Shown here: positions 7,622 through 7,989 of the stretch, piece by piece
Position numbering within the stretch: the first letter of the stretch is position 1
How the letters are laid out: every line of letters begins with the position of its first letter
From: Escherichia coli
GTDB lineage: Bacteria > Pseudomonadota > Gammaproteobacteria > Enterobacterales > Enterobacteriaceae
NCBI RefSeq assembly: GCF_030013205.1
Contig: NZ_CP122648.1
Reading direction: 5' to 3' (one strand)
DNA length: 64,000 bases
Made by a program: the position numbers and the translations under genes
Notes under the pieces: model-generated
The model's database searches: none
What the model was told of the DNA's origin: nothing
The model's input: only the letters and a program-made list of their open reading frames with translations

Positions 7622-7794
7622 TCCGTTTGATTACACTCGTTATTACAAACTTGCATGCAAAGAAGCCCAAGCTGTTAGGTAAACAGAGACCGCAGTGGCA
7701 AGATAATCTAGATATAGCCTATAAAATCCAACAACAAATAGCGGCCTGTTTTCTATGACTTTTCTTTTCCCTAAATATCGCTTATCTAATAAAA

Positions 7795-7811
7795 TGCAAT
7801 AATGTATTGCA
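7795..7811. promoter_or_regulatory. perfect palindrome TGCAATA-ATG-TATTGCA in the AT-rich region upstream of the SIR2-like gene
   Basis: 7-bp inverted arms with 3-bp spacer, about 175 bp upstream of the SIR2-like start, in a 368-bp gap of about 32% GC. Confidence 0.3.
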
Positions 7812-7989
7812 CAGTATTTAATGTGTATTAATATAGATAAGTATTGGTCTTATTTGATAACAAATCCTGAGCCTCAAAATGTCTGCTTTTCACACAAAAC
7901 CAACAAGTAGGCTATTTTTAGCTCTGTGCCGCGAAAATGTCAATTCATATCCGAACCAATACTCTTTAATTTCATTACCTGTGACAATT

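What the first reader, a model, noticed from the sequence alone, without database searches (positions are those of the whole stretch)
7622..7989. AT-rich control region with a perfect palindrome upstream of the SIR2-like gene
The 368-bp gap is about 32% GC and contains TGCAATA-ATG-TATTGCA (7795-7811), a perfect 7-bp inverted repeat that looks like a repressor operator. Low GC also makes this a likely H-NS-silenced region, so the moron may be expressed only on derepression.
Basis: partly seen in the sequence, partly recalled or inferred. Interest (0 to 1): 0.3.

Follow-up and report, generated by a model that had tools for sequence, protein, structure and literature searches.

The report
Chance palindrome in AT-rich gene flank
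The palindrome exists, but it is the kind that AT-rich DNA produces by chance, it is present in only one version of this prophage region, and nothing shows that it controls the neighbouring SIR2-like gene; the region is an ordinary upstream flank of a horizontally acquired gene.

Summary
The window is a Qin/Rac-like lambdoid prophage of E. coli, 100% identical over the tested stretch to porcine ETEC UMNF18. The interval 7622-7989 lies between lygF/DUF977 (7990-8397, -) and a standalone SIR2_2/DUF4917-type gene (-).

TGCAATA-ATG-TATTGCA is exactly at 7795-7811. GC is 34.2%, not 32%.

The palindrome is not more than chance:
- 14-30% of dinucleotide shuffles of the gap contain an equal one, and the window holds 37 of this class.
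- It has no related copy elsewhere in the window.
- In the two other known versions of this flank (80% and 73% identical) one arm carries two substitutions (TGCAATACATCATTGAA).
- The block occurs nowhere else in phage, plasmid or metagenome collections.
- No sigma-70 promoter match beats shuffled sequence.

The interval is composite. 7878-7989 is phage backbone tail. 7550-7877 is the private AT-rich 5' flank of a 1.3-kb cargo insert. The family-consensus start codon is ATG 7549, not 7621.

The gene is co-oriented with the early-right operon. No terminator was recognised in between or after the gene, so read-through transcription on prophage derepression is the likeliest expression route.

H-NS binding is plausible from composition but untested. 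The operator reading is not supported. Interest is low.

The parts
7795..7811 (.). Perfect 7-bp inverted repeat TGCAATA-ATG-TATTGCA. It is private to the window-type allele.
   Evidence: Searches show the sequence and the chance expectation. Searches show the other two alleles read TGCAATACATCATTGAA on the minus strand, which is G7796T and A7801G on the plus strand.
7622..7989 (.). GC is 34.2%.
7878..7989 (-). Tail of the phage backbone after the lygF/DUF977 stop. It is shared with phage Tritos (to 7878) and mEp460_ev081 (to 7933). It is not part of the SIR2 insert.
6573..7877 (-). Cargo insert private to this prophage lineage (1305 bp, 38.1% GC). It contains the SIR2/DUF4917 gene, 17 nt of 3' flank and 328 nt of 5' flank.
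   Evidence: The blastn boundaries against Tritos, mEp460 and HannyBb come. Other cargo occupies the same slot in other phages.
6590..7549 (-). Standalone SIR2_2/DUF4917-type gene (319 aa) from the family-consensus start ATG 7549.
7550..7621 (-). A 72-nt leader that is also an in-frame 24-codon extension (MSINPKLKRVALRYPALFQNESPY). It includes the GAG Shine-Dalgarno remnant at 7561-7559. It is conserved across genera, and its coding status is unresolved.
7630..7635 (-). A -10-like TGTAAT element 8 nt upstream of the conserved ATG 7621. Equivalent T(G/A/T)TAA(T/A) elements sit at the same place in Pantoea, Klebsiella and metagenomic relatives. This is a speculative promoter element.
   Evidence: The PWM score is low, 4.9 bits.
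7651..7660 (.). Second short palindrome, TTGCATGCAA. It is conserved in two of the three E. coli-type alleles (TTGCATGTGA in L088) and absent in other genera.
7914..7943 (-). Best sigma-70-like match on the sense strand, TTGACA-N18-AAAAAT. It lies in the backbone tail. It is not significant, and its -10 is not conserved.
   Evidence: Searches give 13.5 bits against a shuffle-best mean of 11.4 +/- 1.6. One search shows the lack of conservation.
7990..8397 (-). lygF/DUF977 gene, the last gene of the replication module and upstream neighbour of the gap.

Best explanation
The interval is an ordinary, composite non-coding junction in a lambdoid prophage, not a dedicated operator region.

The first part, 7878-7989, is the backbone tail that follows lygF/DUF977 in many Qin/Rac-like phages. 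The second part, 7550-7877, is the AT-rich 5' flank of a horizontally acquired standalone SIR2/DUF4917 gene. That gene sits in the variable cargo slot between lygF and the hok/sok module.

Shown here:
- the insert boundaries;
- the consensus start codon at 7549;
- the chance-level and allele-private nature of the palindrome;
- the absence of any sigma-70 match above background;
- the absence of a recognisable intrinsic terminator between the pR-like promoter (10180-10152) and the gene, or after the gene.

Inferred:
- The gene is transcribed at least by read-through from the early-right operon when the prophage repressor is relieved.
- Any expression in the lysogen comes from weak non-consensus promoter activity in the AT-rich flank. 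The best comparative candidate is the -10-like TGTAAT at 7635-7630, just upstream of the conserved ATG 7621. H-NS could dampen such activity.
- The palindrome itself has no role.
For: - Identity and context: 100% match to E. coli UMNF18. The gene order is dicA/dicC-ydaT-O-like-DUF977-SIR2-(IS481)-hokD-DUF968-rusA-Q.
- Insert boundaries are 6573 and 7877. Other phages carry different cargo in the same slot.
- Palindrome statistics: 14-30% of shuffles hold an equal one, and 37 such repeats occur in the window.
- It has no sibling sites.
- Two further alleles carry TGCAATACATCATTGAA: 16 of 45 E. coli genomes, plus the metagenomic loci L088/L089.
- The RNA hairpin is -7.8 kcal/mol in the window allele but -0.3 and -1.7 in the others.
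- The block around it was found only in this prophage context: no match in phages or plasmids, and 3 metagenome contigs, all of this context.
- The local conservation peak is not significant (permutation p = 0.13).
- Promoter scans: the best hit is within shuffle expectation, and candidates conserved in all three alleles score at most about 8 bits.
- Terminator scans found no intrinsic terminator in either intergenic interval on the minus strand between 10150 and 6500. The few weak hits lie inside reading frames and number no more than shuffles give. Only 17 nt separate the SIR2 stop from the backbone.
- Across genera, only about 7550-7695 is conserved.
Against: - No transcription data could be consulted, so the transcription start is unknown.
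- A defence-type gene is expected to be expressed in the lysogen, which argues for an own promoter that consensus scans failed to find.
- The 30 bp around the palindrome are the best-conserved stretch of the distal flank (25/30 invariant in three alleles). A sequence-specific element without perfect symmetry cannot be excluded.
- Rho-dependent terminators cannot be detected with these tools.
- Only three alleles of the distal flank exist, so comparative power is low.
Confidence: 0.65

Rival explanations
1. One reading: the 7-3-7 palindrome is the operator of a dimeric repressor that keeps the SIR2-like gene off until derepression.
For: - The dyad is perfect in the window allele.
- It extends to an imperfect 14-nt-arm repeat, 11/14 complementary.
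- It sits in the best-conserved 30 bp of the distal flank.
- A weak promoter-like match, TTAATA-N19-TACATT at 8.6 bits, overlaps it.
Against: - The dyad is at chance level.
- Its symmetry is broken by two substitutions in one arm in both other alleles.
- There is no second site in the window and no occurrence elsewhere.
- No regulator gene lies in the insert.
- It is unlike the prophage's DicA-type operators.
- Its centre is 182 bp upstream of ATG 7621 and 254 bp upstream of ATG 7549, with no credible promoter nearby.
- The overlapping -10-like TACATT becomes TACATC in the other alleles.
Confidence: 0.07
2. Xenogeneic silencing: H-NS (possibly with StpA or Hha) polymerises over the AT-rich insert and flank and represses promoter activity there. 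The palindrome plays no part. This is compatible with the best explanation.
For: - The insert is 38.1% GC, the gap 34.2% and the window 48.9%. Only 0.3% of same-sized windows have a GC as low as the gap's or lower.
- One related prophage has an IS1 inserted at about 7843. From general knowledge, IS1 prefers AT-rich targets, and IS insertions are a known way of activating H-NS-silenced operons such as bgl.
- Also from general knowledge (Navarre 2006, Lucchini 2006, Grainger 2006), H-NS preferentially binds AT-rich horizontally acquired DNA in enterobacteria.
Against: - No occupancy or expression data are available.
- No match at up to 2 mismatches to the high-affinity TCGATAAATT motif lies in the gap. 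The nearest is TCGATAAGTT at 7413, inside the gene.
- The AT-rich tract is short, about 1.4 kb.
- A silenced defence gene would give the lysogen no benefit.
Confidence: 0.4
3. The palindrome is transcribed as a hairpin followed by UUUUAUU. It acts as a weak intrinsic terminator or attenuator between lygF and the SIR2 gene on the minus strand.
For: The RNA folds into an 8-bp stem with a 3-nt loop at -7.8 kcal/mol (z = -2.3 against shuffles). It is directly followed by UUUUAUUAG.
Against: - The stem has only 2 G-C pairs and fails the terminator scan.
- The hairpin is absent in both other alleles, at -0.3 and -1.7 kcal/mol.
- A terminator here would also cut off the downstream backbone genes, including Q, which need read-through.
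Confidence: 0.06
4. The gap hides an unannotated small gene or small RNA, and the palindrome belongs to it.
For: Several 21-74-aa ORFs can be drawn, for example 7627-7758 (+), 7821-7910 (+) and 7879-8103 (+).
Against: - None of these ORFs survives in the 80% allele. There are 7-bp, 3-bp and 1-bp indels, and early stops are read from the alignment.
- No Rfam match at E up to 1 lies in 7550-7989.
- Folding energies equal those of shuffles, with z about 0.
- There is no conserved structure.
Confidence: 0.03

Closest known systems
Cargo ('moron'-type) genes in the variable slot after the replication genes of lambdoid phages (the ren/nin-region position of lambda)
   Same: - A foreign gene of deviant GC lies between conserved backbone modules.
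- Different phages hold different cargo at the same junction.
- The cargo is a candidate defence-type protein. One relative sits next to a Hachiman-like HamA-helicase pair in Citrobacter.
   Different: The classical moron definition (from general knowledge, Juhala et al. 2000) includes an own promoter and terminator. Here no terminator was recognised, with only 17 nt between the stop and the backbone, and no promoter rises above background.
Dyad-symmetric phage or bacterial repressor operators, for example the DicA operators of this same prophage
   Same: A short perfect inverted repeat in an AT-rich intergenic region upstream of a gene.
   Different: - It is a single copy and overlaps no credible promoter.
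- Its symmetry is not conserved.
- There is no cognate regulator.
- The sequence is unrelated to TGTTAG-N6-CTAACA.
H-NS-bound xenogeneic AT-rich islands of Enterobacteria
   Same: The region is AT-rich relative to its surroundings and horizontally acquired.
   Different: Occupancy is untested, and the tract is small. No high-affinity motif lies in the gap.

Membership tests
Repressor operator (dyad-symmetric binding site) | Dyad symmetry beyond what the local composition gives by chance | tested here: not met
   14-30% of dinucleotide shuffles hold an equal repeat, and the window has 37 of this class.
Repressor operator (dyad-symmetric binding site) | Symmetry conserved in orthologous regions | tested here: not met
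   Two other alleles read TGCAATACATCATTGAA, with 5 of 7 positions paired.
Repressor operator (dyad-symmetric binding site) | Overlaps or abuts the regulated promoter | tested here: inconclusive
   Only a weak 8.6-bit match overlaps it. No promoter in the gap exceeds the shuffle background. The transcription start is unknown.
Repressor operator (dyad-symmetric binding site) | Cognate regulator nearby, or further sites of the same motif | tested here: not met
   The insert encodes only the SIR2 gene. There are no sibling sites in the window. The block was found only in this locus.
Moron (autonomous cargo unit in a phage genome) | Inserted between genes that are adjacent in related phages, with deviant composition | tested here: met
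   Private DNA spans 6573-7877 between backbone segments. GC is 38% against 49%. The slot holds alternative cargo in other phages.
Moron (autonomous cargo unit in a phage genome) | Own promoter | tested here: inconclusive
   No match lies above background. A weak conserved -10-like TGTAAT at 7635-7630 is the only cross-genus candidate.
Moron (autonomous cargo unit in a phage genome) | Own terminator | tested here: not met
   Only 17 nt separate the stop from the backbone. The only terminator-like hit after the gene lies in backbone DNA, inside the 29-aa ORF at 6495-6476, and hits number no more than shuffles give.
H-NS-silenced xenogeneic DNA | AT content well above that of the host genome | tested here: met
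   GC is 34.2% in the gap and 38.1% in the insert, against 48.9% for the window.
H-NS-silenced xenogeneic DNA | H-NS occupancy, and derepression in an hns mutant | not testable with these tools
   No ChIP or expression data for these strains could be reached.
Rho-independent terminator | G+C-rich stem followed by a U tract, conserved | tested here: not met
   The stem has 2 G-C pairs of 8 and folds at -7.8 kcal/mol. It is lost in the other alleles.

The most novel reading that the evidence does not exclude
Two readings are not excluded.

1. The 30-bp block around the palindrome (AAATA.T.TGCAATACAT.ATTG.ATT) could be a lineage-specific binding site or distal promoter for an uncharacterised standalone SIR2/DUF4917 gene.

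2. Separately, three proximal elements are conserved across genera:
- a -10-like T(G/A/T)TAA(T/A);
- the conserved ATG 7621, 8-9 nt downstream of it;
- a weakly coding 24-codon stretch, L.R(I/V/L)ALRYP.LF, which is cut by a stop codon in Pantoea and frameshifted in Serratia.

Together these could mark a leaderless or short-leader mRNA with an upstream ORF or alternative N-terminus that tunes translation of the SIR2 protein.
Probability: 0.1. Interest if true: 0.35.

Novelty: not a real feature. Interest (0 to 1): 0.1.

Why it matters
It matters little. If the palindrome were an operator, it would point to a dedicated switch for a prophage-borne SIR2-type gene. The evidence says it is a chance dyad in one allele of an AT-rich flank.

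The useful outcomes are practical:
- The gene start is most likely 7549.
- The insert boundaries are 6573 and 7877.
- The gene lies in-line with the early-right operon, with no terminator recognised.

Expression studies should therefore first test read-through from the pR-like promoter, and then the proximal region 7621-7695, not the palindrome.

Tried and rejected
- Rfam at E up to 1 over 4000-13000 found nothing in the gap. It found only sok, plus sub-threshold DicF, isrK and STnc100 matches elsewhere.
- RNA folding of the leader, the backbone tail and the 3' flank gave z-scores near 0.
- Small ORFs in the gap are not conserved between alleles.
- I scanned by eye for known transcription-factor and sigma-54 consensus sequences around the dyad: CRP, FNR, Fur, ArgR, PurR/LacI-type, marbox, IHF, and sigma-54 GG-N10-GC. 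None fitted. This rests on consensus sequences from memory, not on a tool.
- A DicA half-site, CTAACA at about 7673-7678, is present without its partner half and is deleted in allele L088. I judged it chance.
- An apparent MAFFT alignment of the whole Pantoea upstream region to the E. coli flank was not backed by blastn, which supports only 36-86 nt of cross-genus homology. I withdrew the idea that Pantoea shares the distal flank.
- The conservation peak at the palindrome failed a permutation scan, p = 0.13.
- A literature search for the protein accessions found nothing. DUF4917 appears in four papers; the most relevant are a paper and its preprint on a secreted Campylobacter jejuni sirtuin.
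- A PDB sequence search with the family profile found no solved relative.

Full report
**Observation**

The plus strand at 7795-7811 reads TGCAATAATGTATTGCA, a perfect 7-bp inverted repeat around ATG. It extends to an imperfect repeat with 14-nt arms, 11 of 14 complementary. The interval 7622-7989 has 34.2% G+C, not about 32%. Only 0.3% of 368-bp windows in the 64 kb have a GC this low or lower.

The interval lies between two minus-strand ORFs. One is a DUF977 protein at 7990-8397. The other is a SIR2_2-domain protein whose longest ORF runs 6590-7621.

**Where this is**

A 491-bp stretch spanning the gap is 100% identical to E. coli UMNF18 and other porcine ETEC strains. It is 99.4% identical to two human isolates, one of them O55:H7. 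The flank itself (7622-7880) occurs in 45 of 5426 complete E. coli genomes, once each and always on the chromosome. It also occurs in E. albertii.

RefSeq annotation places it in a Qin/Rac-like lambdoid prophage. The gene order is dicA / dicC(cro-like)-ydaT-O-like-DUF977(lygF)-SIR2-hokD-DUF968-rusA-Q.

**Start codon**

PGAP starts the SIR2 gene at ATG 7549, giving 319 aa. Of 663 relatives found, most of the 120 listed are 316-325 aa long. Of the 18 aligned, 17 begin at M(A/T/P/S)RKLIIFGNGLGM; P0002 is the 343-aa form. A GAG at 7561-7559 is invariant in the six loci aligned, and becomes GGAG or AGGAGG in some. The non-coding interval is therefore more probably 7550-7989, 440 bp.

The 24 codons between ATG 7621 and ATG 7549 are not plain spacer, however:
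- The ATG is conserved in six loci.
- The peptide L.R(I/V/L)ALRYP.LF is recognisable in E. coli, Pantoea, Klebsiella, Serratia and metagenomic relatives.
- The fraction of synonymous codon differences is 0.25 in this frame against 0.13 and 0.11 in the other two. The gene body gives 0.69.
- Against translation, Pantoea has an in-frame TAA at codon 17, Serratia a frameshift, and Klebsiella no ATG.

I leave the status of this stretch open. It could be a 5' leader, an upstream ORF or an alternative N-terminus.

**Anatomy of the interval**

blastn against related phages and prophages gives sharp boundaries.
- Backbone shared with Tritos, mEp460_ev081 and HannyBb runs 6226-6572 on the hok/sok side.
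- It resumes at 7878 in Tritos, at 7933 in mEp460_ev081 and at 8000 in HannyBb.
- The private insert is therefore 6573-7877: 1305 bp at 38.1% GC, against 48.9% for the window.
- The insert holds the SIR2 gene, 17 nt after its stop and 328 nt before ATG 7549.

In Tritos and mEp460_ev081 the same slot holds an unrelated gene of about 445-450 aa on the other strand. In HannyBb it holds several small genes. This is a variable cargo slot.

7878-7989 is backbone tail. 7622-7877 is the flank that came with the cargo gene. The palindrome lies in the latter.

**Is the palindrome more than chance?**

No.
- In 2000 dinucleotide-preserving shuffles of the gap, 14% contain a perfect 7-bp inverted repeat with a spacer of up to 3 nt. 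30% do so with a spacer of up to 10 nt.
- The window has 37 such repeats with spacer up to 3 nt.
- Searching the window for the dyad at up to 3 mismatches gives 7 hits against 4.6 expected, and every other hit has 3 mismatches.
- The prophage's own operators, TGTTAG-N6-CTAACA at 10135-10152, are unrelated.

**Is it conserved?**

No. Three alleles of the flank exist:
- the window type, in 29 genomes (28 at 99% identity or more, 1 at 95-99%);
- a type about 80% identical, in 16 genomes such as KSC1031 and N1420;
- a type 72.6% identical, on two metagenomic contigs, L088 and L089.

Both non-window alleles read TGCAATACATCATTGAA on the minus strand. Both substitutions fall in one arm (plus-strand G7796T and A7801G), leaving 5 of 7 positions paired.

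As RNA, the hairpin is -7.8 kcal/mol in the window allele and -0.3 and -1.7 in the others. A larger 79-nt fold is unusual only in the window allele, with z = -2.4 against -0.9 and -0.5.

The 30 bp around the dyad are the best-conserved part of the distal flank, with 25 of 30 columns invariant. A column-permutation scan gives p = 0.13.

The flank 7586-7880 has no match in the phage or plasmid collections. A degenerate pattern for the conserved block found only three metagenome contigs, all from this same prophage context. It is not a dispersed motif.

**Promoters and terminators**

The consensus scan finds 4 promoter-like sites in 7400-8200 against 2.0 +/- 1.5 in shuffles. My position-weight-matrix scan uses frequencies from memory, so the scores are approximate.
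- The best sense-strand hit is TTGACA (7943-7938)-N18-AAAAAT (7919-7914) at 13.5 bits.
- The best hit in shuffles averages 11.4 +/- 1.6 bits, with a 95th percentile of 14.1.
- This site lies in the backbone tail, and its -10 is not conserved.
- Sites conserved in all three alleles score at most about 8 bits.
- The match that overlaps the dyad, TTAATA-N19-TACATT, scores 8.6 bits and loses its final T in the other alleles.

On the minus strand, the scan found no intrinsic terminator in either intergenic interval between the pR-like promoter (TTGACT-N17-TATTTT, 10180-10152) and 6500. The few weak hits lie inside reading frames and number no more than shuffles give. The insert has no room for a terminator after its stop codon.

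**What is conserved across genera**

Relatives of the gene are standalone genes in unrelated contexts:
- next to a P2-type Ogr gene in Pantoea;
- next to a HamA-helicase (Hachiman-like) pair in Citrobacter;
- between chromosomal genes in Klebsiella and Serratia.

blastn-supported DNA homology upstream of ATG 7549 reaches only 36-86 nt. By alignment alone it reaches about 7695 in L090.

Within that proximal part, a -10-like T(G/A/T)TAA(T/A) sits 8-9 nt before the conserved ATG 7621, at 7635-7630 in the window. It is the only cross-genus candidate for a promoter that travels with the gene. It is weak, with G at position 2 and poor -35 elements, so I treat it as a lead only.

**Most likely mechanism**

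The gene is co-oriented with the early-right operon, and no terminator was recognised before or after it. I infer that it is transcribed at least by read-through when the DicA-type repressor is relieved, like other genes between the replication module and Q.

Expression in the lysogen, if there is any, would come from weak promoter activity in the AT-rich flank. The proximal region is the better candidate.

H-NS binding is plausible from composition and from general knowledge of xenogeneic silencing, but nothing here tests it. One related prophage (L020) carries an IS1 end at about 7843, 32 bp from the dyad. This fits an AT-rich IS1 target and could alter expression, but it is a single case.

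**Comparison with known kinds**

The locus resembles a moron in position and composition but fails the own-terminator criterion, and its own promoter is unproven. As an operator it fails three of the four criteria listed in the membership table, and the fourth was inconclusive. As an H-NS target it meets only the composition criterion.

**Verdict**

The sequence observation is correct. The operator interpretation is not supported. The H-NS idea is reasonable but untested. The region is an ordinary AT-rich 5' flank of a cargo gene joined to a backbone tail. Interest is low.

Noticed in passing
window 5131-6225 (IS); 4961-5116 (hokD); 6220-6387 (sok/mok region): An IS481-family element (transposase ORF 5188-6261) is inserted between the hokD coding sequence and its upstream sok/mok regulatory region. 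Related prophages without the IS are collinear across the junction. The Rfam sok match (109 bits) lies on the far side of the IS from hokD, so hokD is probably cut off from its promoter and antisense control.
   Followed up: partly
window 6430-6519 (-): An unannotated 29-aa hydrophobic ORF (VLVLKCALAIAAVVAIYCLAIVLMDRLSD) has an AGGAGG Shine-Dalgarno 5 nt upstream of its GTG start. It sits in the backbone just downstream of the cargo slot. It is conserved, with conservative replacements, in Tritos, mEp460_ev081 and the 80% allele, where it is 35 aa. It has no Pfam or NCBIfam match.
   Followed up: partly
window 7550-7621 (-): A 24-codon in-frame stretch upstream of the consensus SIR2 start has a conserved ATG and the peptide motif L.R(I/V/L)ALRYP.LF across E. 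coli, Pantoea, Klebsiella and Serratia. It is interrupted by a stop codon in Pantoea and a frameshift in Serratia, and lacks a start codon in Klebsiella. The coding signal is weak: synonymous fraction 0.25 against 0.12 in the other frames.
   Followed up: partly
L020:1-104 (IMG/VR UViG 2711768074), junction equivalent to window ~7843/7844: In one related prophage an IS1 end abuts the flank 32 bp from the palindrome and replaces the backbone side. It is identical to IS1 copies on thousands of plasmids.
   Followed up: partly
window 6590-7549 (-); loci L009-L014, L026-L087: The SIR2_2/DUF4917-type protein belongs to a highly conserved standalone family of about 320 aa. The alignment shows invariant GNG.GM, ATLNYD and HLHGSPLF motifs. 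The family is spread over Gamma-, Alpha- and Betaproteobacteria and a few other phyla. One copy lies beside a Hachiman-like pair in Citrobacter. No solved structure was found by sequence, and PADLOC hits are only weak (PDC-S21, Aga_SIR2; E about 1e-5 to 1e-6).
   Followed up: partly
window 12160-12210 (+), 12222-12376 (+), 4871-4952 (-): There are sub-threshold Rfam matches to DicF (32.5 bits, gathering score 48), STnc100 (33.7, gathering 47) and isrK (30.5, gathering 50). The DicF match lies where DicF is expected, upstream of dicB in a Qin-like prophage.
   Followed up: no
window 7876-7883 and 7934-7941 (+): The 8-mer AAAATGTC (GACATTTT on the minus strand) occurs twice, 58 bp apart. The copies lie at the two ends of the backbone tail, one at the insert junction. 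Both are conserved in the 80% allele. Their significance is unknown, and a short two-copy repeat is often chance.
   Followed up: no
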